Assembly: GCA_937899865.1 (NCBI GenBank)
Contig: CALBRH010000051.1
Span: forward strand, 32,001-96,000
DNA length: 64,000 nt
Direction: 5' to 3'
Origin: an uncultured euryarchaeote
GTDB lineage: Archaea; Thermoplasmatota; Poseidoniia; Poseidoniales; Poseidoniaceae
A program made the translations under genes and the position numbers. Each line of letters begins with the position of its first letter. The first letter of the stretch is position 1. The notes below the pieces were generated by a model. That model worked only from the letters and a program-made list of their open reading frames with translations. It was not told where the DNA came from and did not search any database. Below, piece by piece: positions 7,260-54,306 of the stretch.

Positions 7260-7554
7260 GGATGGCGGGATAGGTGGGGAGCTAGGCGTACCCTGTACCA
7301 CAAATCGTCTTCATGGTGGACTGAACGCCTTGGAGCGGCGAGAGCGGCTTTATGGTTCCTACATGCGGACGTTGATGTCTCGCCCCTACATGACTCGGGT
7401 GTCATGAACCGTCTCCGGAAGGAAACGGGAAATGAATAACTGGGGAATCAGGTCAGGCCGGGAACGGAGCAGCCCTACTTAGGGCCATGAGTGCTGTGGG
7501 GTAGCGGGATGGAGAAAGTGTGTGGATTTGGCCATAAAGTACGAGCGTCCATCC
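7260..7554 (+). ncRNA. ffs: Archaeal signal recognition particle (7S) RNA
   Basis: GC-rich island in AT-rich DNA. Domain-IV motif GGTCAGGCCGGGAACGGAGCAGCC near 7451-7474. 5' GGATGG pairs with 3' CCATCC. TTAAAATA box about 20 nt upstream. Ends approximate. Confidence 0.9.
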
Positions 7555-7566
7555 TTGGAATTCCCA

Positions 7567-8061
7567 CTATATATCAAAAATAACATTGCCTACCCATGCA
7601 GGACCAATTAATTCAGGAATAGAATCATCATCAGATCTATATGATTCTCCATCAGATAATTCAGTAATCATTAATTCATGTGATGTTACTGCTTTGATTT
7701 CTAAATTCCTATTGACGCTATCAGAATCTATCCACGATACTTGAACTTCACAAGTCAATCTTCCTTCTAATTCTTTTATCATACATTGAGCATCAACAAG
7801 AAATTTGTTTTCTACTTCCAATTTATACAGCACTTCCTCAAGCCAAACCAAAATTAGTGATTCATAATCATTTGTAGATGAATTAACTTCAACATTCCAT
7901 TGAGCAGTATGCCTTGTAAATGTGTGCAATATTTTTGCCTGTTCTTCTGGAATTAGTAAATTCAACATTCCGAGAGATATTTCTTTGAACAAATTGGGAA
8001 GTGAATTTGAGAATCCACATATTCCAATATCAGCCTTAGTCTCTAGAGTCCAAAAACTCAT
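7567..8061 (-). CDS. Archease family protein
   Basis: N-terminal TKADIG (ADI motif), LEEVLY, C-terminal EIKAVTSH and VIFDI. Start refined to ATG 8061. Confidence 0.8.
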   Translation of the reverse strand: MSFWTLETKADIGICGFSNSLPNLFKEISLGMLNLLIPEEQAKILHTFTRHTAQWNVEVNSSTNDYESLILVWLEEVLYKLEVENKFLVDAQCMIKELEGRLTCEVQVSWIDSDSVNRNLEIKAVTSHELMITELSDGESYRSDDDSIPELIGPAWVGNVIFDI

Positions 8062-44862: not shown

Positions 44863-44925
44863 ATTGCCTCACCCGTTTGTCCCATCAAGCCATTATTCTT
44901 GAACCCTCACCTATTCCCCTGTTAT

Positions 44926-46191
44926 ATGCGGACCGTTTTATTCAATTGCGGACCGATTGTCAGTTTTGACTCAGATGCACCTTTAGTTGGCCAAAATATG
45001 ACTAATGAGGACTGGTTAATCGCTGATGGAAAAGCAATTATTGTTGAAGGCAATCAAATTGCAGAAATTGTAGATTCAAAGACAGCATTGGATGATTATT
45101 CATCACATGTAGATAATTCCGAGACTTCATTATTTGATGCCAACGGAAAGGCAATCATTCCAGGTTTGATAGACTCTCATACACACATTGTTTGGGGTGG
45201 AGATCGTTCCAGAGAAGTTAGATTGAGGTTACAAGGAAAATCATATTCAGATATTGCTGCAATGGGTGGGGGAATTAATTCTACTGTTTCAAAGACTAGA
45301 ATGCTAACCCAAGAGCAGTTATTCCATACTGCTAAGCGCAGAGCATTAACTGCCCTATCTAATGGAACAACATTCATAGAGACAAAATCAGGTTATGGAT
45401 TATCTACTGAAAGTGAATTGAAACTGCTTTCTGTAGCGAAATTACTAGACCAAGACGAACATACTCCCGGGATTGATTCAACTTGGCTGGGAGCTCACGC
45501 AATACCGGACTCCCATTCATTAGAGTCGTATACTGAAGAGATTATTTCTCAGCAATTGCCTGCAATTGCTAAATCAGGCCTTGCAAGGTCAGCAGATGTA
45601 TTTTGTGAACCAGGTTGGTTTGGCATAGATGAGTCAAAGATGATTTTACAAGAGGCACGTAAACATGGACTTTCATTGAGAATGCATATTGATGAGTTTT
45701 GTGATGGCGGTGGTGGACAATTGGCTGCAGAATTAGAAGTTGACACAGCAGACCACGCACATTACACCAATGACGAAGCACGTGAAAGAATGAGAGAGGC
45801 TGGAGTTAATACTGGATTCTTACCAGGAACGCCATATTCTATGGGCGCGAATTGGCCAGATTTCAATGAAATGATTAATTTAGAATTGCCATGGACTATT
45901 GCGACTGATTACAACCCCAATAACCAAATTCTAAGTTTGCCTTTTATTGGCTCATGCTTAGTTCAGCGATGTAATGTTGATCCGTTGGCAGCTCTTGCAT
46001 CATGTACAATTAATGCAGGATTTACTACGCCGCATAATTCTGGATTAAGGCACGGTATTATCGCTCCTGGTGCAGTAGCGAATCTAAATATCCTACAATC
46101 TAATCAATGGGAGTCTTGGTGCTTGACTCCTGGGCATACGCCTGTGGATTCAACTATTATGGAGGGTGCTTTAGTCAATAATGAATTATAA
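44926..46191 (+). CDS. hutI: Imidazolonepropionase
   Basis: PGL.DSHTH, GGGI.STV, E.KSGYGL, AHA, DVFCE, H.DE, ATDYNP. Confidence 0.92.
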   Translation: MRTVLFNCGPIVSFDSDAPLVGQNMTNEDWLIADGKAIIVEGNQIAEIVDSKTALDDYSSHVDNSETSLFDANGKAIIPGLIDSHTHIVWGGDRSREVRLRLQGKSYSDIAAMGGGINSTVSKTRMLTQEQLFHTAKRRALTALSNGTTFIETKSGYGLSTESELKLLSVAKLLDQDEHTPGIDSTWLGAHAIPDSHSLESYTEEIISQQLPAIAKSGLARSADVFCEPGWFGIDESKMILQEARKHGLSLRMHIDEFCDGGGGQLAAELEVDTADHAHYTNDEARERMREAGVNTGFLPGTPYSMGANWPDFNEMINLELPWTIATDYNPNNQILSLPFIGSCLVQRCNVDPLAALASCTINAGFTTPHNSGLRHGIIAPGAVANLNILQSNQWESWCLTPGHTPVDSTIMEGALVNNEL

Positions 46192-46829: not shown

Positions 46830-46982
46830 ATGTCAGAAGTATCTGGTTATTGTCTCAAGTGCAAAAAATATGGTCCGATTAAAGGTGGTTCTCTGATTAA
46901 GATGTCCAATGGTAGAACAAGAATGTCAGGTACATGCTCAATGCCTGGATGCGGTGGAAAGATTTCGAAAATCGTAAGCTGA
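46830..46982 (+). CDS. 50-aa zinc-finger protein, DUF5679-like (not in ORF track)
   Basis: Hand translation MSEVSGYCLKCKKYGPIKGGSLIKMSNGRTRMSGTCSMPGCGGKISKIVS: YCxKC...NGR...G.C..CG. Confidence 0.75.
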   Translation: MSEVSGYCLKCKKYGPIKGGSLIKMSNGRTRMSGTCSMPGCGGKISKIVS

Positions 46983-46999
46983 AATGAAAACCGATGCGG

Positions 47000-47008
47000 T
47001 TTAATATA
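47000..47008 (+). promoter_or_regulatory. TATA box of tRNA-Val
   Basis: TTTAATATA ending 24 nt before the tRNA 5' end, preceded by a purine-rich stretch. Confidence 0.55.
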
Positions 47009-47031
47009 CGCGACTATTCGCTTTAGATGTA

Positions 47032-47107
47032 GGGCTCGTGGTCTAGGGGTTATGACGTCGCCTTGACATGGCGAAGATCGAGAGTTCAATTCTCTCCGAG
47101 CCCACCA
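47032..47107 (+). tRNA. tRNA-Val(GAC), intronless, CCA encoded
   Basis: GGGCTCG/CGAGCCC acceptor stem, TCGCC-TTGACAT-GGCGA anticodon arm, GAGAG-TTCAATT-CTCTC T arm, ACCA end. Confidence 0.97.
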
Positions 47108-47178: not shown

Positions 47179-47499
47179 TCATAATTCTTCTATTTTCATT
47201 TCCGAATCAATGTTAACCTTAACTGGAGTTTCCTCCTCATCTCCATCAAAAGAAAAGTCTGTAGAACCACCATCCCAAGTTACTACGTCTTCACTTTGTT
47301 CAAATTCTTCTTCAATGATTTTCTGGTTTGGTCCCATTGAATATGCCAGTGGGTCAATGATTACATCTTCCTTCGGCTTTTCTTCAGGTTTTGGAGCATC
47401 ACGATCGACTAAGTGAGCAGTAGAATGGAAAGCACCACATCCTAAGCATCGAAATGATCCCTTTCTCTCTATGCAACCACAAACAGGACATTCTGCCAT
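47179..47499 (-). CDS. Small acidic protein with N-terminal zinc ribbon
   Basis: CPVC...CLGC followed by acidic low-complexity region with V.TWDGG..DF.F. Confidence 0.7.
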   Translation of the reverse strand: MAECPVCGCIERKGSFRCLGCGAFHSTAHLVDRDAPKPEEKPKEDVIIDPLAYSMGPNQKIIEEEFEQSEDVVTWDGGSTDFSFDGDEEETPVKVNIDSEMKIEEL

Positions 47500-47533
47500 G
47501 TTGTTGAAAAGATTCAATTTATCTAATATCATT

Positions 47534-49726
47534 TCAATCTTCTAAGAACATATCATCTTGATATCCTGTAACTAGGTCACCAGTGCCGTCTTCTTCGATA
47601 GTAACTAATCCTTCTTCGTCATCAAATTCAATAATTGTGCCAAAAACTTCCTCATCTTCCAAAACGAGTCCTATATATGATCCAATGTCGATTTCATCCT
47701 CGTCCCCATCATCATATTCATCATCATATTCTTCGTCAACATCTTCAGTTTCATCACTGTCGGAGTCAGCATCATCTGACTTATTTTCCTTCTCATCCGA
47801 GGACTCAATAATATCTTTCACTTCTTCTTTTTCAGAATCATTTTCGCGCATTGCTTTGACCTTTGCACGCCATGCTGGGACCTTAATTAACTGGACAAAT
47901 AAACCAGCAAAAAGACCAATTGTCCCAAGGATAATGAACATAATTCCATCCCAATAGAAACCGGCCGGCATTGAAATTTCGCTACCTTTACCAGCTAAAG
48001 GTGTTAGAGAATTTTTACACCCATCTATCTGTATTTTATCGTCGCATGGATATGCGTCTCCATTGACATATACTGTCCCATCAGAGGTTGTTGTTTGACC
48101 AAATTCAGTATCCAAGTAGACTGTTCCACCATTACCATCGACAAATGGTGCTAAAGTTCCATTGACTACCCACAATAGGATAAAGAAAACGAAACCGGTA
48201 TGGATAAGTGGCCATACAACATCTTTCCACTTCTTTGAAATCATTCTCTTTTGCCACTTCGAGGGGAATTCTTTCGCTTTTGATAGAGATGTACTCTCAT
48301 CAAAATCAGTTTCATCATGAGATTCCAATGTCTCAATAAATTCAATCATATCGATTGAATCATCACCATCAGAATCAAACATTTTCATCAATGAAGTAAT
48401 AGCATCTTGATCAACTTCTTCATTGGAATGTTCGGATAAGGCTTCTGAAAGTTCATTTCGGTTTATCTTGCCATCACCATTGGAATCGAGTTTTCTAAAG
48501 AATGACCCTGCATTAATGTCTAAGGCATCCATATACTCGATCAACAATTCAGTTGGGGTTTGAGTAATATCGGATTTCATATCAATATCCATTGATTCGA
48601 TGATATCAATTAATTCGAATGTATTGACTCTGTTATCAGAGTCTGTGTCAACAAGAGCGATGATTCCCAATATATCTGATGGAGACAAGTTCTCTCCTGC
48701 AATTTCCTCTATTCCTTTCTGTAATTCAGGGCCATTAATCAGTCCATCATCATCAAGGTCCATTGACTCAAACATAGAACGTATAGTCATGTCTTTTTCT
48801 TGGGCAGCGGTAACTAAAATTCTCAAATAATCTTCAGAAGAAGGTTCATCAACTTCATCATCTTCTATTCGCGCATCTTCAGAATCATCGTCTGATTCTT
48901 CCTCTTCTTCCGATTCGTCCTCGTTTGACGTGTCCTCAGAGGCCTCTTCAGCTTCCTCCTCATCGCCAGATTCATCATCTTCAGTCTCCTCTTCATCTTT
49001 AGATTCAACTTCTTCAACTACGACTTCTTCATCAATAGTTTCTTCCTCAGGTTTTGAATCATTAGATTCAGAAACATAATCTGATGCAGCCTTTTTCAAT
49101 TCAGCTTCAGTCAAGTAGTCATTATTATTTTCATCATAGTCTGCGGCAAATGATAAGAATTTATCCTTATCACTAATCTCATGCTTTTTCATTACTCGAT
49201 CAAGGACATTTTCTGAGTAATCTTTGGCTTTTCCAGATGGTTCATCTTGAACATCGTCAGATTCAGAAAGTTCTTCTCCATTGATTGCAGCAACTAATTC
49301 TTCAAGACTAATTACTCCATCACCATCAGTGTCAACCTCTGAAATCAATCTATCAATTTGTGATGGCGGTAAATCTGCTAAATTCATTTTTAATAGGCCA
49401 TCTTTTAATTCATCGTCATTGATAGAACCATCTGAATCAGAATCAAATTTAGAAAACAACATTTTTGCATCTATTCCAGTATTATTGAACCAGTTTCGCA
49501 AAACATCTAAGACATCGTCTGCTACAAAATAAACACCACATTCAGGGCAACTTTTCGAATCTAATGGTACCAATGCCTGACAAGCACCACATTCACCAAG
49601 TGCTTCATCGGATACACCGGAAAAACGGACCCCACACTCTGGACAATCTTTTGAGTCAAGTGGAATTATCGCTCTACAGGAGCCGCATTCAGCCATTGGA
49701 ATATTGTTTTCTTCAGTGTCGGACAT
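47534..49726 (-). CDS. Membrane protein with two double-zinc ribbons, seven EF-hands, two TM helices and an acidic SH3/Tudor-like C-terminus
   Basis: Tandem CxxC-x10-CxxC units; seven 12-residue DxDxDG..xxE-type loops; TM segments near aa 510-530 and 600-620. Confidence 0.85.
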   Translation of the reverse strand: MSDTEENNIPMAECGSCRAIIPLDSKDCPECGVRFSGVSDEALGECGACQALVPLDSKSCPECGVYFVADDVLDVLRNWFNNTGIDAKMLFSKFDSDSDGSINDDELKDGLLKMNLADLPPSQIDRLISEVDTDGDGVISLEELVAAINGEELSESDDVQDEPSGKAKDYSENVLDRVMKKHEISDKDKFLSFAADYDENNNDYLTEAELKKAASDYVSESNDSKPEEETIDEEVVVEEVESKDEEETEDDESGDEEEAEEASEDTSNEDESEEEEESDDDSEDARIEDDEVDEPSSEDYLRILVTAAQEKDMTIRSMFESMDLDDDGLINGPELQKGIEEIAGENLSPSDILGIIALVDTDSDNRVNTFELIDIIESMDIDMKSDITQTPTELLIEYMDALDINAGSFFRKLDSNGDGKINRNELSEALSEHSNEEVDQDAITSLMKMFDSDGDDSIDMIEFIETLESHDETDFDESTSLSKAKEFPSKWQKRMISKKWKDVVWPLIHTGFVFFILLWVVNGTLAPFVDGNGGTVYLDTEFGQTTTSDGTVYVNGDAYPCDDKIQIDGCKNSLTPLAGKGSEISMPAGFYWDGIMFIILGTIGLFAGLFVQLIKVPAWRAKVKAMRENDSEKEEVKDIIESSDEKENKSDDADSDSDETEDVDEEYDDEYDDGDEDEIDIGSYIGLVLEDEEVFGTIIEFDDEEGLVTIEEDGTGDLVTGYQDDMFLED

Positions 49727-49829
49727 AGTCACACCCAATTATCGGAATACTACCCATGATATAATGGTTGACGGGCATTTATGGCTCAAATGTATATATG
49801 ATTGGTCTTATTCGTAAACAGGCGAGACA

Positions 49830-50696
49830 ATGGAGTTAAGACCAAGTTGCGTTTATCTCTATGAGTTTTCAGATTATGCTAAGTTGTCCATGGATATTGA
49901 ATTATTGATGGAAATTAATAGTGAATCTCAATTTACACTTTTTTCTAGGTTACCAACCAGGAGGTTGATTGAAAGGTTAGATTTATCAAAAATAGATCAC
50001 TATTGGATAACTGAAAATGAAGGTAAACAGTCGATAAAACCTGATATTGAAAATATTTTCAACTTAATAATGAAAAATAATAATGATGGATTAAACGTGT
50101 ATTTAGTGGATGGTTTGGAATATATTTTAAGCAGCAGTAATAACGATGATCTATTGTCAAAAATGTCACAATTTACAGATGATCTCAAGCCGTTAAATTC
50201 AGCACTGATATATTGCATTGATAGTTTAGCATTCGATAACAAATGGATAATAAAATTAAGACATCTTAGTCAAATTTTACAAATTAAGACTCCAGAAGTA
50301 GTAGATGTTTCAATTACAGAAGTTGAAGATGAAGAAGAGGCAGTAGAAGTAATACAACATGAACTTGGCATTGATGGAGGTCCACGTTTAGCATATTTAG
50401 CGAGATTACCGGAAATTGGATTTACTAATGAGATATTAGTGAAAAGAATTCTTCAATGGAGGAGAATGGGTTTAGATGTATCTAAAATAGAGCCTGCTAT
50501 GTCATACTCTAGTAAAGAGGCTTATGAGCTCTATAAATTAGTGGAAGAAGATGTCAGACGGGCTACAGAATTAGAGAGATTTATTCATGCAAATCAAGAA
50601 CATTTGAACACTTCTGAAATAGCTACAGACTTATTTAGAATTAGACAATTAACTGGCTTGGATGAATTGGAACAAAAATATTACACTTCATCTTGA
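49830..50696 (+). CDS. DUF835-like domain protein
   Basis: F.R.P, YWIT, VY..DG.EY, F...L, plus C-terminal W...G.DVS.I helical region. Confidence 0.65.
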   Translation: MELRPSCVYLYEFSDYAKLSMDIELLMEINSESQFTLFSRLPTRRLIERLDLSKIDHYWITENEGKQSIKPDIENIFNLIMKNNNDGLNVYLVDGLEYILSSSNNDDLLSKMSQFTDDLKPLNSALIYCIDSLAFDNKWIIKLRHLSQILQIKTPEVVDVSITEVEDEEEAVEVIQHELGIDGGPRLAYLARLPEIGFTNEILVKRILQWRRMGLDVSKIEPAMSYSSKEAYELYKLVEEDVRRATELERFIHANQEHLNTSEIATDLFRIRQLTGLDELEQKYYTSS

Positions 50697-52235
50697 TAAT
50701 TTGAAATTTTCAGCCTCAATTCTAGCCAGCCATGAACCATTTCTTAAGTTCAATGCGATTTCCTTCAATTCATCACTAGTGCTGCGATCAGCGTCTAATT
50801 CAGGGGAGATATTTCTCAACAATTTAATTAAAGATTTAACCATAGGTGAGGGCGAATGTTCAGCATGTTTCAATGCTTCGCCAGCAATCAATAATTCACA
50901 TGCTAAAACTTCTGAAATTCTTAGACATGCTTGAAATAAATTCCAGCATGCTGTAGCACCCATACTTACATGATCTTCTTGGCCAGCAGAAGTGCTAGTT
51001 GAAAATGCAGTACGGGGGGATGAATGCCCGTGTAATTCTGCCAAAGCTGCACCTGCACTATATTGGACAATCATTAATCCTGATTCCAACCCACTATTAG
51101 TCGCCAAGAATGGTGGCAAATTACTCTTTTTTGGATCCAATAGTTGGTCCATCCGCCTTTCTGAAATAGAACCTAACTCAAATAATGACAAAGACATCCT
51201 ATCTGCGCATAATGCTAAAATTTCACCATGAAAATTGCCTTGAGATACTATTTGATGGCTATTACCTTTCTTATCTGGGAAAACCAATGGGTTATCTGTG
51301 GTGCTATTCAATTCTATACTTATTGTTGATTGCATAGCCAATAATGCTTCATAGACTGCACCATGAACTTGAGGAGTGCATCTAAATGAGTAAGGATCTT
51401 GTACCTTGTCACAATTAGCATGAGATGATAAAATTTCAGAACTCTTCATAATTTCTCTTATACGTTGCGCGACTATTTTTTGACCAGGATGTGGTCTTGC
51501 TTCATGCACTCGGTCATCTGTAGGCGTAATACTTCCTTTGAAACCGTCTAAAGAAGCACAATATATTACATCAGCAATAGGTAATAGATTGTTAAGAATA
51601 TCAAGTGATAAAATAGAATAACTTAACATTTGACTGGTGCCATTGATTAAAGATAAGCCATCTTTAGCCTGAAGTTCAATAGGTATGAGGCCGTTTTCAG
51701 TTAATACGTCACGTGTGACTAATAATTCACCTTCATCCGATACAATATTTCCCTCACCAATTAGTGTAAGTGCCATGTGGGATAAAGGCGCTAAATCGCC
51801 ACTTGCTCCAAGACTACCAATTCTTGGAATATATGGTGTGATTTGTAAGTTAACGAAATCGATTAATTGTTGAACTACGTTTGGATGAACTCCTGAGAAA
51901 CCTTTGGCAAATGAATTAATCCTAGATACCATCATTGCCCTAACAGACAATTTATCCATCATTTCTCCAAGTCCCGTAGCATGTGAGCGGATTAAATTAT
52001 TCTGTAGTTGTTGTAATTTATCAGAATCAATTGTCGTGTTAACAAGGGAGCCAAAGCCTGTATTAATGCCATAGACAACATCATCGGATTGTAAAATATC
52101 CTCCACAACAGCCCTAGACATAACTATTCTACTCCAAGCATCTTCAGATACCTCTAACTTTGCATTACCTGAGGCTATAGCCATTACTTCAGCGGTAGAC
52201 AATGTGTTACCATCTAGGAATACTGAGCGACTCAT
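50688..52235 (-). CDS. hutH: Histidine ammonia-lyase
   Basis: VYG.NTGFG, GSLGASGDLAPL (MIO), L.LINGT, QD.YS.RC.PQVHG, QEDHVSMG. Confidence 0.95.
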   Translation of the reverse strand: MSRSVFLDGNTLSTAEVMAIASGNAKLEVSEDAWSRIVMSRAVVEDILQSDDVVYGINTGFGSLVNTTIDSDKLQQLQNNLIRSHATGLGEMMDKLSVRAMMVSRINSFAKGFSGVHPNVVQQLIDFVNLQITPYIPRIGSLGASGDLAPLSHMALTLIGEGNIVSDEGELLVTRDVLTENGLIPIELQAKDGLSLINGTSQMLSYSILSLDILNNLLPIADVIYCASLDGFKGSITPTDDRVHEARPHPGQKIVAQRIREIMKSSEILSSHANCDKVQDPYSFRCTPQVHGAVYEALLAMQSTISIELNSTTDNPLVFPDKKGNSHQIVSQGNFHGEILALCADRMSLSLFELGSISERRMDQLLDPKKSNLPPFLATNSGLESGLMIVQYSAGAALAELHGHSSPRTAFSTSTSAGQEDHVSMGATACWNLFQACLRISEVLACELLIAGEALKHAEHSPSPMVKSLIKLLRNISPELDADRSTSDELKEIALNLRNGSWLARIEAENFKLSR

Positions 52236-52239
52236 TTAA

Positions 52240-54306
52240 TCACCCTATCAAGTCGTCAAAGATAGCATCATCGGTTATATTAGGTACTGTGACCTTTAAC
52301 ATTGGATTTATTTTCATAGCGTGATTAATTGCTTCTATTGCACCGTTGTTTCTTGCCCATGCTCTACGTGCAACTCCATTGTTTACATCCCAATGTAACA
52401 TTGATTCAATTTTCTGTGCTGCCTCATCACTTCCATCTATTAACATACCAAAACCACCATTCATTACTTCGCCCCATCCGACTCCACCTCCATTATGGAG
52501 GCTAATCCATGTGGCGCCTCTAAAGGCGTCTCCAACAAAATTCTGAACAGCCATGTCTGCGGTGAACATAGAACCATCCTTGATATTAGCAGTTTCACGA
52601 TATGGGCTATCTGTTCCAGAAACATCATGGTGATCTCTGCCGAGTACAATTGGTGCCGAAATTTCACCGCTAGCAATTGCTTGATTCATTGCTAAGGCAA
52701 TTTTTCTTCTACCAATATCATTAGCATATAGGATTCTTGCCTGGCTTCCAACAACCAGTTTATTATGTCCAGCTTGCTCAATCCATCTAATATTATCATT
52801 CAGTTGTTGTCTAATTGAAGAAGAGGATTCTTCAAGAAGATTTTCTAATACTGATTTTGCAATTTCATCAGTTTTAGCCAAATCATCAGGATTGCCTGAA
52901 GTACAAACCCAACGATAAGGTCCAAAACCATAATCAAAACATATCGGCCCCATTATATCTTCAACATAACTTGGATATCTAAATCCGCCATCATCAGACA
53001 TTACATCAGCACCAACTCTAGATGCTTCCAGCAAAAATGCATTACCATAGTCCCAAAAGAACATGCCTCTCTCCGATAAAATATCAATGGATTTAGCATG
53101 TCGCCTCAATGTCTCCTGAACTTCTCTAACAAATTTATCAGGCTCATTAGACATCATTTTAGTACATTCTTCATAGGTATAATCTGCAGGAAAATATCCA
53201 CCTTGATACGGGTTATGTAGTGAGGTTTGATCACTTCCGAGATCGACATCGATATTTCTTTCAACGATTCTCTCCCATAACTCAACAATGTTTCCAATAT
53301 AGCCAATTGATATTGCTTCTTTACGATTGGCGGCAGAAACCATAAGATCTATTGCTTCATCAATATCTCTTGAAACATTAGTTAACCAACCTTGCTCATA
53401 TCTTTTAACCGCTGCATGTTCATTGATTTCTGCTACTATACAAGCAGCACCAGATATTACTGCAGCCTTTGCTTGCGCGCCAGACATCCCCCCAAGACCA
53501 GAAGTGACAAATGTAACTCCGGACAAATCTTTTCCAGGTGGAAGATTCAAATGCATTCTAGCTGCATTGAGTAATGTTATAGTTGTTCCATGAACAATTC
53601 CTTGTGGCCCGATGTACATATACGAGCCAGCAGTCATTTGCCCATATTGAGTGACACCAAGAGAGTTCATCTTTTCGTAATCTTCTCGTGAACTATAATT
53701 TGGAATAACCATGCCATTAGTTATGACTACTCTTGGAGCATTTTTACTTGAAGGAAATAATCCAAGTGGATGTCCAGAATACATTACCAATGTTTGTTCG
53801 TCACTCATTTCGCATAAATATTGCATTGCCAATCTATATTGAGCCCAATTTTGGAATACAGAACCATTTCCTCCATAAGTAATCAATTCATGAGGAAATT
53901 GAGCTACAGCAGGATCTAAATTATTCATAATCATCAGCATTATGGCGGATGCTTGTTGTGAATTAGCGGGGTATGCTTCGATAGGATATGCTTTCATTTC
54001 ATATTCTGTAGGCCTAAATCTTTGCATGGTAATTCTGCCAAATGTTTCAAGTTCCTCAAGAAATTCGGCTGCTAAGGTTTTATGAAATTGTGCATCAAAA
54101 TACCTTAGAGCATTTTTTAATGCTAATACTTTCTCTGAATTATCTAATACTTTCCTTCGAGCAGGAGCATGGTCAACAGAATTATCAGTTCCAGGATGTG
54201 GAGGGAGATTGTTAGGGATTCCTTCTAGTAAACAATTCCTAAGAACCATCCAATCGGCTTCCATGAGTTTACCCAAGGCGAGGGATTCTTTGAGACTATT
54301 GCTCAA
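52240..54306 (-). CDS. hutU: Urocanate hydratase (long form)
   Basis: TYGGNG.VFQNWAQY, QMTAGS..YIGPQGI.HGT, GLGGMSGAQ, DQTS.HN, GRDHHD.SG.DSP.RET. Confidence 0.96.
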   Translation of the reverse strand: MSNSLKESLALGKLMEADWMVLRNCLLEGIPNNLPPHPGTDNSVDHAPARRKVLDNSEKVLALKNALRYFDAQFHKTLAAEFLEELETFGRITMQRFRPTEYEMKAYPIEAYPANSQQASAIMLMIMNNLDPAVAQFPHELITYGGNGSVFQNWAQYRLAMQYLCEMSDEQTLVMYSGHPLGLFPSSKNAPRVVITNGMVIPNYSSREDYEKMNSLGVTQYGQMTAGSYMYIGPQGIVHGTTITLLNAARMHLNLPPGKDLSGVTFVTSGLGGMSGAQAKAAVISGAACIVAEINEHAAVKRYEQGWLTNVSRDIDEAIDLMVSAANRKEAISIGYIGNIVELWERIVERNIDVDLGSDQTSLHNPYQGGYFPADYTYEECTKMMSNEPDKFVREVQETLRRHAKSIDILSERGMFFWDYGNAFLLEASRVGADVMSDDGGFRYPSYVEDIMGPICFDYGFGPYRWVCTSGNPDDLAKTDEIAKSVLENLLEESSSSIRQQLNDNIRWIEQAGHNKLVVGSQARILYANDIGRRKIALAMNQAIASGEISAPIVLGRDHHDVSGTDSPYRETANIKDGSMFTADMAVQNFVGDAFRGATWISLHNGGGVGWGEVMNGGFGMLIDGSDEAAQKIESMLHWDVNNGVARRAWARNNGAIEAINHAMKINPMLKVTVPNITDDAIFDDLIG

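What the first reader, a model, noticed from the sequence alone, without database searches (positions are those of the whole stretch)
47534..49726. Archaeal membrane protein with seven EF-hands, two zinc ribbons and an SH3/Tudor-like tail
Loops DSDSDGSINDDE, DTDGDGVISLEE, DENNNDYLTEAE, DLDDDGLINGPE, DTDSDNRVNTFE, DSNGDGKINRNE and DSDGDDSIDMIE sit in helix-loop-helix context, mostly as calmodulin-like pairs. They are on the N-terminal, presumably cytoplasmic, side of a two-TM hairpin whose loop has a Cys pair. The tail IGSYIGLVL..EEVFGTIIEFD..EGLVTIEED looks like a small beta-barrel. Multi-EF-hand sensors are typical of eukaryotes and poorly described in archaea. Inference: a calcium-responsive membrane signalling scaffold.
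Basis: partly seen in the sequence, partly recalled or inferred. Interest (0 to 1): 0.72.

Follow-up and report, generated by a model that had tools for sequence, protein, structure and literature searches.

The report
Membrane-tethered multi-EF-hand protein of marine archaea
This is a real, conserved but unstudied gene of the abundant ocean archaea Marine Group II (Poseidoniales): it holds seven calmodulin-type calcium-binding sites, two zinc ribbons and a small Tudor-like barrel on the inner face of the membrane, travels with two partner genes, and is a good but untested candidate for calcium sensing in archaea.

Summary
Window 47534-49726 (-) encodes a 730-aa protein. It has a double zinc ribbon, seven EF-hand loops (six canonical and one weaker; 0.05 expected by chance) and a two-TM hairpin. 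The ~60-aa outer loop carries two invariant Cys. Two poly-acidic spacers and a 50-aa C-terminal five-strand barrel complete it; the barrel's best structural matches are Tudor, KOW and Agenet domains (Z 8.0, 1.3 A over 52 residues).

Charge distribution (231 vs 23 K+R over 28 homologues), the zinc ribbons and the lack of a signal peptide place both termini, and so the EF-hands, in the cytoplasm.

The family-specific C-terminal half was found only in Poseidoniales: 88/99 Poseidoniaceae and 15/99 Thalassarchaeaceae genomes.

The gene is translationally coupled to a 117-aa zinc-ribbon protein and lies head-to-head with a DUF835 (inactivated KaiC) gene. Seven small-genome genera lack these genes but keep the flanking hut genes.

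EF-hand number varies from 0 to 8 among orthologues. The EF-hands are therefore a variable input on a constant tether.

Calcium sensing or scaffolding is the best reading, but it is untested.

This scan has already reported the same family from at least ten other genomes, with the same conclusion. Interest is moderate: a new variant of a known kind.

The parts
47534..49726 (-). Gene for the 730-aa EF-hand membrane protein (stop codon 47534-47536)
   Evidence: Full-length homologues at 65-100% identity. 28 orthologues recovered from Poseidoniales genomes.
49538..49687 (-). Double zinc ribbon, residues 14-63 (four CxxC)
   Evidence: Pfam DZR 28.2 bits (cut-off 27.3) and UPF0547. All four CxxC are invariant in 28 homologues.
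49262..49480 (-). EF-hand pair 1, residues ~83-155 (loops at 95 and 132). This is the pair found in all 28 EF-hand-bearing orthologues examined.
   Evidence: The Ca-ligand positions and the LNLADLPPSQ linker are conserved across the order.
49061..49237 (-). Divergent EF-hand 3 (loop at 198) with a degenerate partner helix-loop, residues ~164-222
   Evidence: It fits the loop pattern, but scores only E 0.095 alone. It is present in only some orthologues.
48827..49051 (-). Poly-acidic spacer, residues 226-300 (61% D+E)
   Evidence: Its length and sequence vary between orthologues.
48305..48796 (-). Four-EF-hand calmodulin-like module, residues ~311-474 (loops at 323, 360, 414, 451)
   Evidence: phmmer against PDB: residues 313-467 align to a calmodulin/calcineurin B fusion at E 3.3e-16, and to calmodulins at about 1e-10. 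Pfam matches.
48140..48271 (-). Basic juxtamembrane helix (KWQKRMISKKWK) and TM1, residues ~486-529
   Evidence: Hydropathy. AF2 model with helices 14-20 and 22-48. Conserved FP..WQK.MMSK motif.
47951..48139 (-). Outer loop, residues ~530-592, with invariant C561/C570 and the NSLTPLAG and SSMP motifs
   Evidence: Alignment A1. Small beta-sheet in the AF2 model. Almost no K/R in the loop. No match in PDB.
47876..47950 (-). TM2, residues ~593-617, opening with the YWDG motif (Y and D invariant in alignments A2 and A4) and containing a G-x-x-G-x-x-x-G stretch
47687..47875 (-). Basic membrane-exit stretch (WRAKVKAMR) followed by a poly-acidic linker, residues 618-680
47537..47686 (-). C-terminal five-strand beta-barrel (Tudor/KOW/SH3-like fold), residues 681-730
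   Evidence: AF2 pLDDT 82.7. VIA-align: PHF19 Tudor 6wau Z 8.0, rmsd 1.3 A over 52 residues; SMN Tudor Z 7.6. Best Foldseek E 6.4e-3.
47179..47532 (-). Co-operonic 117-aa zinc-ribbon protein with an acidic tail and conserved short motifs (DPxxYS, WxGGSTDFxF)
   Evidence: It starts 1 nt after the upstream stop codon. It lies immediately downstream in all 28 loci. Alignment. No Pfam family.
49830..50696 (+). Divergently transcribed DUF835 (inactivated KaiC-like) protein, 288 aa
   Evidence: Pfam DUF835 41.2 bits, cut-off 33.1. It is adjacent and divergent in every locus whose flank was held. Its genus-level distribution almost matches that of the EF-hand gene. DUF835 is equated with iKaiC in PMC5847659.
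49758..49769 (-). Conserved BRE/TATA-like element AACCATTATATC, about 32 nt upstream of the ATG
   Evidence: The same (A/G)AAC(C/G)(A/G)TTATAT(C) box appears at the same distance in most of the 18 orthologous upstream regions. It has a single exact copy in the window. Promoter function is inferred.

Best explanation
The gene encodes a membrane-tethered, cytoplasm-facing calcium-binding scaffold specific to Poseidoniales (Marine Group II archaea).

Shown by computation:
- The protein crosses the membrane twice, with both ends inside.
- About 60 conserved residues with a probable disulfide are exposed outside.
- The double zinc ribbon, a two-EF-hand lobe, a divergent EF-hand and a calmodulin-like four-EF-hand module sit on the cytoplasmic N-terminal side, interrupted by a long acidic spacer. 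A second acidic spacer holds a small acidic Tudor/SH3-like barrel on the C-terminal side.

Inferred:
- The EF-hand lobes bind Ca2+ when cytoplasmic Ca2+ rises and change conformation, as calmodulin lobes do.
- This changes what the tether binds at the membrane. Candidate partners are the co-translated zinc-ribbon protein, whose disordered tail carries conserved aromatic motifs, and the divergently encoded inactivated-KaiC (DUF835) protein, a domain class used as an output module in archaeal signalling.
- The constant core of the family is zinc ribbons, TM hairpin and barrel. The number of EF-hands (0 to 8) is a lineage-variable regulatory input.
For: EF-hands:
- Pfam EF-hand_7 E 4.7e-31.
- Seven loops fit the pattern, against 0.048 expected by chance.
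- Calmodulin is the best PDB sequence match, E 3e-16 to 1e-10.
- The Ca-ligand positions of pair 1 are conserved across orthologues down to about 30% identity.

Topology:
- K+R on the flanks is 231 inside vs 23 outside over 28 homologues, and there is no signal peptide.
- The N-terminal zinc ribbons are invariant.

Barrel: AF2 pLDDT 82.7; Z 8.0, rmsd 1.3 A over 52 aa to Tudor domains.

Operon: a 1-nt gap to the Zn-ribbon gene, which lies downstream in 28/28 loci. DUF835 is divergent in every locus with a flank.

Joint presence and absence:
- Genera g14-17, 19, 23 and 24 gave 0/71 for both the EF-hand gene and DUF835.
- The same genera gave 59/71 for hutU.
- Five fetched loci there read Kae1-hutI-tRNA-Val-[other gene]-hutH-hutU, with all three genes missing.

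Context:
- DUF835 is described as an iKaiC output domain in PMC5847659.
- EF-hand pairs were found in 63/63 sampled Poseidoniales genomes but only 23/237 other Thermoplasmatota.
Against: - No Ca2+ binding, conformational switch or partner contact was tested.
- Synteny of the whole hutU-hutH...hutI-Kae1 region is conserved across the order, so adjacency alone is weak evidence.
- The joint absence of the trio may reflect a single deletion in one clade, that is, one event.
- Positional orthologues without any EF-hand exist (P0161, P0217), so the family works without Ca2+ input in some lineages.
- The barrel matches Tudor only at fold level. No Pfam Tudor, SH3 or KOW hit was found, and Foldseek E is only about 6e-3.
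- The long D/E tracts would also bind Ca2+ non-specifically, which fits a buffer as well as a sensor.
Confidence: 0.5

Rival explanations
1. Calcium buffer or structural calcium protein. The EF-hands and the poly-D/E tracts soak up Ca2+ leaking in from 10 mM seawater at the inner membrane face, or they only stabilise the fold. No signal is relayed.
For: 28% of residues are D or E, with two tracts of 56-61% D+E. The EF-hand copy number is highly variable (0-8), as expected if capacity matters more than geometry. There is one gene per genome.
Against: A buffer does not need invariant zinc ribbons, a conserved outer loop with a Cys pair, a conserved terminal barrel or a conserved partner operon. 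The acidic tracts are not conserved in sequence or length and look like spacers. EF-less orthologues keep everything else.
Confidence: 0.2
2. Calcium-independent membrane tether or adaptor. Its core job is done by the zinc ribbons, the TM hairpin with its outer loop and the barrel, for example linking an envelope or S-layer feature to a cytoplasmic complex. The EF-hands are dispensable decoration.
For: DZR, TM hairpin and barrel are the only parts present in all family members. P0161 and P0217 lack EF-hands. The outer loop is among the best conserved segments. The barrel also occurs inside a 1361-aa non-membrane protein (P0182) and in shorter membrane proteins.
Against: In this protein and in all 28 orthologues examined, EF pair 1 keeps its ligand residues. 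That pattern indicates selection for metal binding.
Confidence: 0.2
3. Two-TM cation (possibly Ca2+) channel or transporter subunit gated by its own cytoplasmic EF-hands. Oligomers would form a pore lined by TM2, with a ring of the invariant Asp of the YWDG motif at the outer mouth.
For: N-in/C-in 2-TM topology. Asp117 of the C-terminal-module alignments (Asp593 of the protein), at the outer end of TM2, is invariant, and TM2 contains a small-residue G-x-x-G-x-x-x-G stretch that could pack helices. A weak profile hit to the polycystin-2 S5-pore region (E 1.1).
Against: The polycystin hit is at noise level. The AF2 model shows beta-strands and a disordered stretch in the loop, not a re-entrant pore helix. 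No channel or transporter family appears in Pfam, PDB sequence or fold searches.
Confidence: 0.05
4. Extracellular, dockerin-like or structural Ca2+ repeats. The N-terminal region lies outside the cell and uses seawater Ca2+ for folding or for cohesin-type docking.
For: Dockerins and many bacterial surface proteins use EF-hand-like loops. The organism lives in 10 mM Ca2+ (general knowledge).
Against: No signal peptide or N-terminal hydrophobic segment at the true start. The positive-inside ratio is 231:23. Four Zn-binding CxxC pairs at the N-terminus suit the reducing cytoplasm. Pfam reports EF-hand pair models and no dockerin at E <= 1.
Confidence: 0.03

Closest known systems
Calmodulin and calmodulin-like four-EF-hand sensors (Pfam EF-hand_7 / EF-hand_1)
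   Same: Canonical 12-residue loops with Asp at position 1 and Glu at position 12, arranged in pairs. Residues 313-467 align over four EF-hands of a calmodulin/calcineurin B fusion at E 3.3e-16. The location is cytoplasmic.
   Different: Not a small soluble protein. The EF-hands are embedded in a 730-aa membrane-anchored chain with zinc ribbons, acidic spacers, a TM hairpin and a barrel. The EF-hand number varies from 0 to 8 among orthologues. Ca2+ binding and target binding are untested.
Bacterial multi-EF-hand proteins such as calerythrin, calsymin and the membrane-anchored EfhP of Pseudomonas (named from my own knowledge; not searched here)
   Same: Prokaryotic proteins with two to six canonical EF-hands. 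EfhP is also membrane-anchored.
   Different: Those are soluble, secreted or single-pass proteins. None, to my knowledge, combines a double zinc ribbon, a 2-TM hairpin and a Tudor-like barrel, and none is archaeal.
Tudor / Agenet / KOW small beta-barrels (SH3-like fold class)
   Same: Five-strand barrel. PHF19 Tudor Z 8.0 with rmsd 1.3 A over 52 residues; SMN Tudor Z 7.6; NusG KOW Z 7.3.
   Different: No sequence-level match to any Tudor, SH3 or KOW model. The invariant residues are Gly and Phe that look structural. A conserved methyl-lysine/arginine aromatic cage is not evident. The domain is very acidic, which argues against nucleic-acid binding.
DUF835 / iKaiC output domains of archaeal signalling proteins (Galperin et al. 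2018, PMC5847659)
   Same: The divergent neighbour carries DUF835 above Pfam's cut-off. This domain class is fused to REC and PAS domains in other archaea.
   Different: Here it is a stand-alone 288-aa protein with an uncharacterised helical C-terminal half. It is linked to the EF-hand gene only by conserved position and co-occurrence.
Poseidoniales-specific gene modules with calcium-binding domains (Meheust et al. 2022, PMC9258230)
   Same: That survey notes MGIIa- and MGIIb-specific modules of hypothetical protein families carrying calcium-binding domains and suggests a signalling role.
   Different: The main text devotes two sentences to this and describes no architecture, topology, partners or distribution there. 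I did not check whether this family is among those modules.

Membership tests
EF-hand (Pfam EF-hand_7, EF-hand_1; PROSITE PS00018-type loop) | 12-residue loop with oxygen ligands at positions 1, 3, 5 and 9, Glu/Asp at 12, and a hydrophobic residue at 8 | tested here: met
   Seven loops fit the pattern; shuffles give a mean of 0.048. All seven have Glu at position 12.
EF-hand (Pfam EF-hand_7, EF-hand_1; PROSITE PS00018-type loop) | Helix-loop-helix context and pairing of adjacent hands | tested here: met
   The EF-hand_7 (pair) model matches 4 stretches, E 4.7e-31. EF-hand_1 matches 5 stretches. Hand 3 has only a degenerate partner.
EF-hand (Pfam EF-hand_7, EF-hand_1; PROSITE PS00018-type loop) | Binds Ca2+ with micromolar or better affinity | not testable with these tools
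   Needs ITC, a 45Ca overlay or a mobility shift on the expressed fragment.
Calmodulin proper | Small soluble protein of about 150 aa with exactly four EF-hands in two lobes | tested here: not met
   A 730-aa membrane protein with extra domains. Only residues 313-467 resemble a four-hand unit.
Double zinc ribbon (Pfam DZR, PF12773) | Two tandem ribbons, each with two CxxC knuckles, scoring above the curated cut-off | tested here: met
   28.2 bits against a cut-off of 27.3, so marginal. The four CxxC are invariant in 28 homologues.
Tudor / SH3-like small beta-barrel | Five-strand barrel superimposable on solved members | tested here: met
   pLDDT 82.7. Z 8.0, rmsd 1.3 A over 52 of 57 residues of 6wau_A. 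Z about 8 lies at the upper edge of what that tool reports as typical for unrelated small folds.
Tudor / SH3-like small beta-barrel | Sequence membership in a Tudor, Agenet, SH3 or KOW family model | tested here: inconclusive
   No such Pfam hit at E <= 1 to 5. PDB profile search: best hit LSm5 at E 0.56. hhalign against a Tudor-like domain of the same genome gave probability 0.5%.
Tudor / SH3-like small beta-barrel | Aromatic cage for methyl-lysine or methyl-arginine | tested here: inconclusive
   Only two Phe are invariant, plus a usually aromatic residue before the invariant Gly at alignment position 31. Their positions in the model were not inspected.
Dockerin-type extracellular Ca2+ repeats | Secreted or extracellular location (signal peptide, outside orientation) | tested here: not met
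   No N-terminal hydrophobic segment at the true start. K+R is 231 inside vs 23 outside.
DUF835 / iKaiC (neighbouring gene) | Match to PF05763 above the curated cut-off | tested here: met
   41.2 bits against a cut-off of 33.1, residues 24-138. The ESM Atlas nearest clusters are DUF835.

The most novel reading that the evidence does not exclude
Poseidoniales run a lineage-specific cytoplasmic calcium second-messenger system that arose independently of the eukaryotic one. Every genome sampled carries EF-hand pairs, with 3-17 EF-hand_7 matches per Poseidoniaceae genome. These are recombined with zinc ribbons, Tudor-like barrels, a SAP domain and membrane modules. The conserved trio described here would be its core relay: an EF-hand membrane tether, a zinc-ribbon partner and an inactivated-KaiC protein.
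Probability: 0.2. Interest if true: 0.8.

Novelty: new variant of a known kind. Interest (0 to 1): 0.55.

Why it matters
Whether archaea use Ca2+ as an intracellular signal is largely open, and canonical multi-EF-hand proteins are rarely described in them. Marine Group II archaea are among the most abundant heterotrophs of the surface ocean and remain uncultured. This protein offers a concrete, expressible object: a soluble 480-residue cytoplasmic fragment with seven predicted sites and two candidate partners. With it, calcium sensing in archaea can be tested biochemically without a culture. Its domain combination is not described in the literature searched. It is, however, one lineage-restricted family of unknown function, already labelled 'EF-hand domain-containing protein' in public records. 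This scan has now met it repeatedly.

Tried and rejected
- Profile search of PDB sequences with the barrel (A3) and the TM hairpin (A4). Only noise came back: LSm5 at E 0.56 and polycystin-2 at E 1.1. I do not read the polycystin hit as evidence for a channel.
- Foldseek of the TM-hairpin model against PDB gave nothing below E 0.1. The ESM Atlas shape search returned only the family itself.
- In the 1.84-billion-protein search, P0186 matched the Cys-loop 16 times. It is a low-complexity tandem-repeat translation, and I dismissed it as spurious.
- Two weak hits outside Poseidoniales in the phylum search (E 7e-5 and 5e-4, 23-29% identity over the acidic region) are treated as compositional.
- hhalign of the barrel against the Tudor-knot/Agenet-like end of another EF-hand protein of the same genome showed no relationship.
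- Pfam on the 117-aa partner and on the C-terminal half of the DUF835 protein gave nothing significant.
- The bacterial sigma-70 promoter and terminator scan did not exceed shuffles and does not apply to archaea.
- The 80-aa and 97-aa ORFs overlapping the tRNA and the partner gene are shadow ORFs.
Full report
WHAT IS THERE

The window is archaeal. It holds an archaeal SRP RNA at 7263-7569. Close homologues of the flagged protein are labelled Candidatus Poseidoniaceae, that is Marine Group IIa.

One ORF runs 47534..49738 on the minus strand from a TTG. The ATG at 49726 gives a 730-aa protein, and orthologues begin at the equivalent acidic MSD/MTE start.

ANATOMY

- Zinc ribbons: residues 14-63 hold four CxxC knuckles. 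Pfam DZR scores 28.2 bits against a cut-off of 27.3. All four knuckles are invariant in 28 orthologues.
- EF-hands: seven loops lie at residues 95, 132, 198, 323, 360, 414 and 451. All fit a PS00018-type pattern, and all have Glu at position 12. Shuffled versions of this very acidic protein give 0.048 matches on average.
- Pfam support: EF-hand_7 E 4.7e-31 with four stretches, EF-hand_1 with five.
- PDB sequences: residues 313-467 align over a four-hand calmodulin/calcineurin B unit at E 3.3e-16.
- Hand 3 is the weak one, at E 0.095 on its own fragment. Its partner is degenerate.
- Acidic tracts: residues 226-300 are 61% D+E and residues 626-680 are 56% D+E. They vary in length and sequence between orthologues, so I read them as spacers.
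- Membrane helices: about 503-529 and 593-617.
- Outer loop: about 60 residues between the helices, one of the best conserved parts of the family. It has invariant C561 and C570 and the motifs NSLTPLAG and SSMP, and TM2 opens with YWDG.
- An AF2 model of this segment (pLDDT 76.8) gives an amphipathic juxtamembrane helix, TM1, a small beta-sheet, a disordered stretch and a long TM2. It matched nothing in PDB. In the ESM Atlas it matched only its own family.
- C-terminal barrel: the last 50 residues fold with pLDDT 82.7 into a five-strand barrel. The best matches are Tudor domains: PHF19 at Z 8.0 with rmsd 1.3 A over 52 residues, and SMN at Z 7.6. KOW and Agenet domains score close behind.
- The barrel match is fold-level only. 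No sequence model of these families matches.

TOPOLOGY

Over 28 orthologues, the 15-residue flanks on the N-side of TM1 and the C-side of TM2 hold 231 K+R. The loop-side flanks hold 23. There is no signal peptide, and the N-terminus carries zinc-binding cysteines. Both termini, and hence all EF-hands, are predicted to be cytoplasmic, and the two loop cysteines lie outside. This is a prediction, not a measurement.

DISTRIBUTION

I searched with the family-specific C-terminal half (residues 476-730), which avoids the promiscuous EF-hands.

- Among 200 genomes of the order it was found in 88/99 genomes of the window's own family and 15/99 of the second large family. In 250 genomes of other Thermoplasmatota there were only two weak, compositional hits.
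- A profile of the module found only 144 cluster representatives in 1.84 billion proteins, many of them fragments.
- Orthologue length ranges from 549 to 760 aa because the EF-hand count varies: seven in the window's close relatives, four in most, two in some. Two orthologues have an extra pair between TM2 and the barrel.
- Some positional orthologues have no EF-hand at all, only zinc ribbons, an acidic tract, a TM hairpin and the barrel (P0161, P0217).
- The hairpin also occurs twice in a zinc-ribbon-free, EF-free protein (P0157). The barrel occurs inside a 1361-aa non-membrane protein (P0182).
- The constant core is therefore zinc ribbons, hairpin and barrel, with the EF-hands as a variable insert.

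GENE CONTEXT

- A 117-aa gene starts 1 nt after the stop codon. It encodes a zinc ribbon followed by a disordered acidic tail with the conserved motifs DPxxYS and WxGGSTDFxF. It lies immediately downstream in all 28 loci.
- Upstream and divergent lies a 288-aa DUF835 protein. Galperin and colleagues class DUF835 as an inactivated KaiC output domain of archaeal signalling proteins (PMC5847659).
- The roughly 100-bp spacer between the two genes holds a BRE/TATA-like box, AACCATTATATC at 49758-49769. It recurs at the same distance in most orthologous upstream regions.
- The wider order, hutU-hutH / DUF835 / EF-hand gene-partner / tRNA-Val / hutI-Kae1, is also conserved. Adjacency alone therefore proves little.
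- More telling are seven small-genome genera. They gave 0/71 for both the EF-hand gene and DUF835 but 59/71 for hutU.
- In five loci fetched from those genera the flanks are intact, the three genes are missing, and in the one gap inspected an unrelated 246-aa gene fills the slot.
- This fits a three-gene unit. It may still be a single deletion event, which I could not resolve without a species tree.

WIDER SETTING

EF-hand pairs were found in all 63 Poseidoniales genomes of the phylum sample, with 3-17 matches per genome in the window's family. Among other Thermoplasmatota they were found in 23/237.

The window's own genome has EF-hand pairs in about eight further ORFs. Three of them are:
- a Tudor-like / EF-hand / Tudor-knot protein;
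- an EF-hand plus zinc-ribbon protein;
- a multi-TM protein with an EF pair and a SAP domain.

One published survey notes in two sentences that Poseidoniales-specific gene modules carry calcium-binding domains (PMC9258230). I found no paper describing this protein.

INTERPRETATION

The best reading (confidence 0.5) is a membrane-tethered, cytoplasm-facing Ca2+-binding scaffold. Its EF-hand lobes would modulate what the tether binds, with the zinc-ribbon partner and the iKaiC protein as the candidate partners.

The rivals are:
- a Ca2+ buffer (0.2);
- a Ca2+-independent adaptor with dispensable EF-hands (0.2);
- an EF-hand-gated two-TM channel (0.05), for which only an invariant Asp at the mouth of TM2 and a noise-level polycystin hit speak;
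- an extracellular dockerin-like arrangement (0.03).

None of the functional steps is shown.

EARLIER REPORTS FROM THIS SCAN

The scan has flagged this family on at least ten other genomes, with the same verdict. My results agree with those reports, with one correction. The module is not present in every Marine Group II genome: it was not found in seven Thalassarchaeaceae genera sampled.

VERDICT

This is a real, ordinary-looking but uncharacterised lineage-specific protein with a domain combination not described elsewhere. It is a new variant of a known kind, of moderate interest.

Noticed in passing
window 46830-46982 (+): An unlisted 50-aa gene for a DUF5679 small zinc-binding protein (Pfam 29.1 bits, cut-off 27) lies between the ABM-like gene and tRNA-Val. 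The 80-aa ORF at 46847-47089 on the other strand is its shadow. The gene is kept next to tRNA-Val even in genera that lack the EF-hand trio (58-aa ORF at L043 10511-10687).
   Followed up: partly
L005 1102-2403 (-), own genome contig C5: A 434-aa protein combines a Tudor-like domain (Tudor_2/Tudor_5 hits, below cut-off), an EF-hand pair (33 bits) and a C-terminal Tudor-knot/Agenet-like domain (Tudor-knot 26.2 bits, cut-off 20.8). This is a second EF-hand plus small-barrel combination in the same genome.
   Followed up: partly
L007 1-1884 (+) on contig C13, and L006 478-1965 (+) on contig C48, both in the own genome: Two further EF-hand architectures. One is a roughly 10-TM protein with a cytoplasmic EF pair and a C-terminal SAP domain. 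The other is a 496-aa protein with an EF pair and a C-terminal zinc ribbon. Together (EF-hand pairs in 63/63 Poseidoniales genomes sampled), these point to an order-wide EF-hand expansion.
   Followed up: partly
L043 10848-11588 (-), genome G027: In a genus that lacks the EF-hand/DUF835 trio, the slot between tRNA-Val and hutH holds an unrelated 246-aa gene. By eye it looks like an AlaX-type tRNA-editing domain (HxxxH and CxxxH motifs). I did not run it against Pfam.
   Followed up: no
window 44899-46191 (+) and 50688-54306 (-): The histidine-utilisation genes are split around the trio: the hutI-like amidohydrolase lies on one side and hutH-hutU on the other. This arrangement is conserved across the order. 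No hutG was seen in the stretch examined.
   Followed up: no
P0157 and P0168 (proteins from the representative library; source not known): Proteins of 609-639 aa carry two copies of the TM hairpin with the YPCD...C loop motif. They have no zinc ribbon, EF-hand or barrel, and they have a basic N-terminus. The hairpin is therefore an independent module.
   Followed up: no
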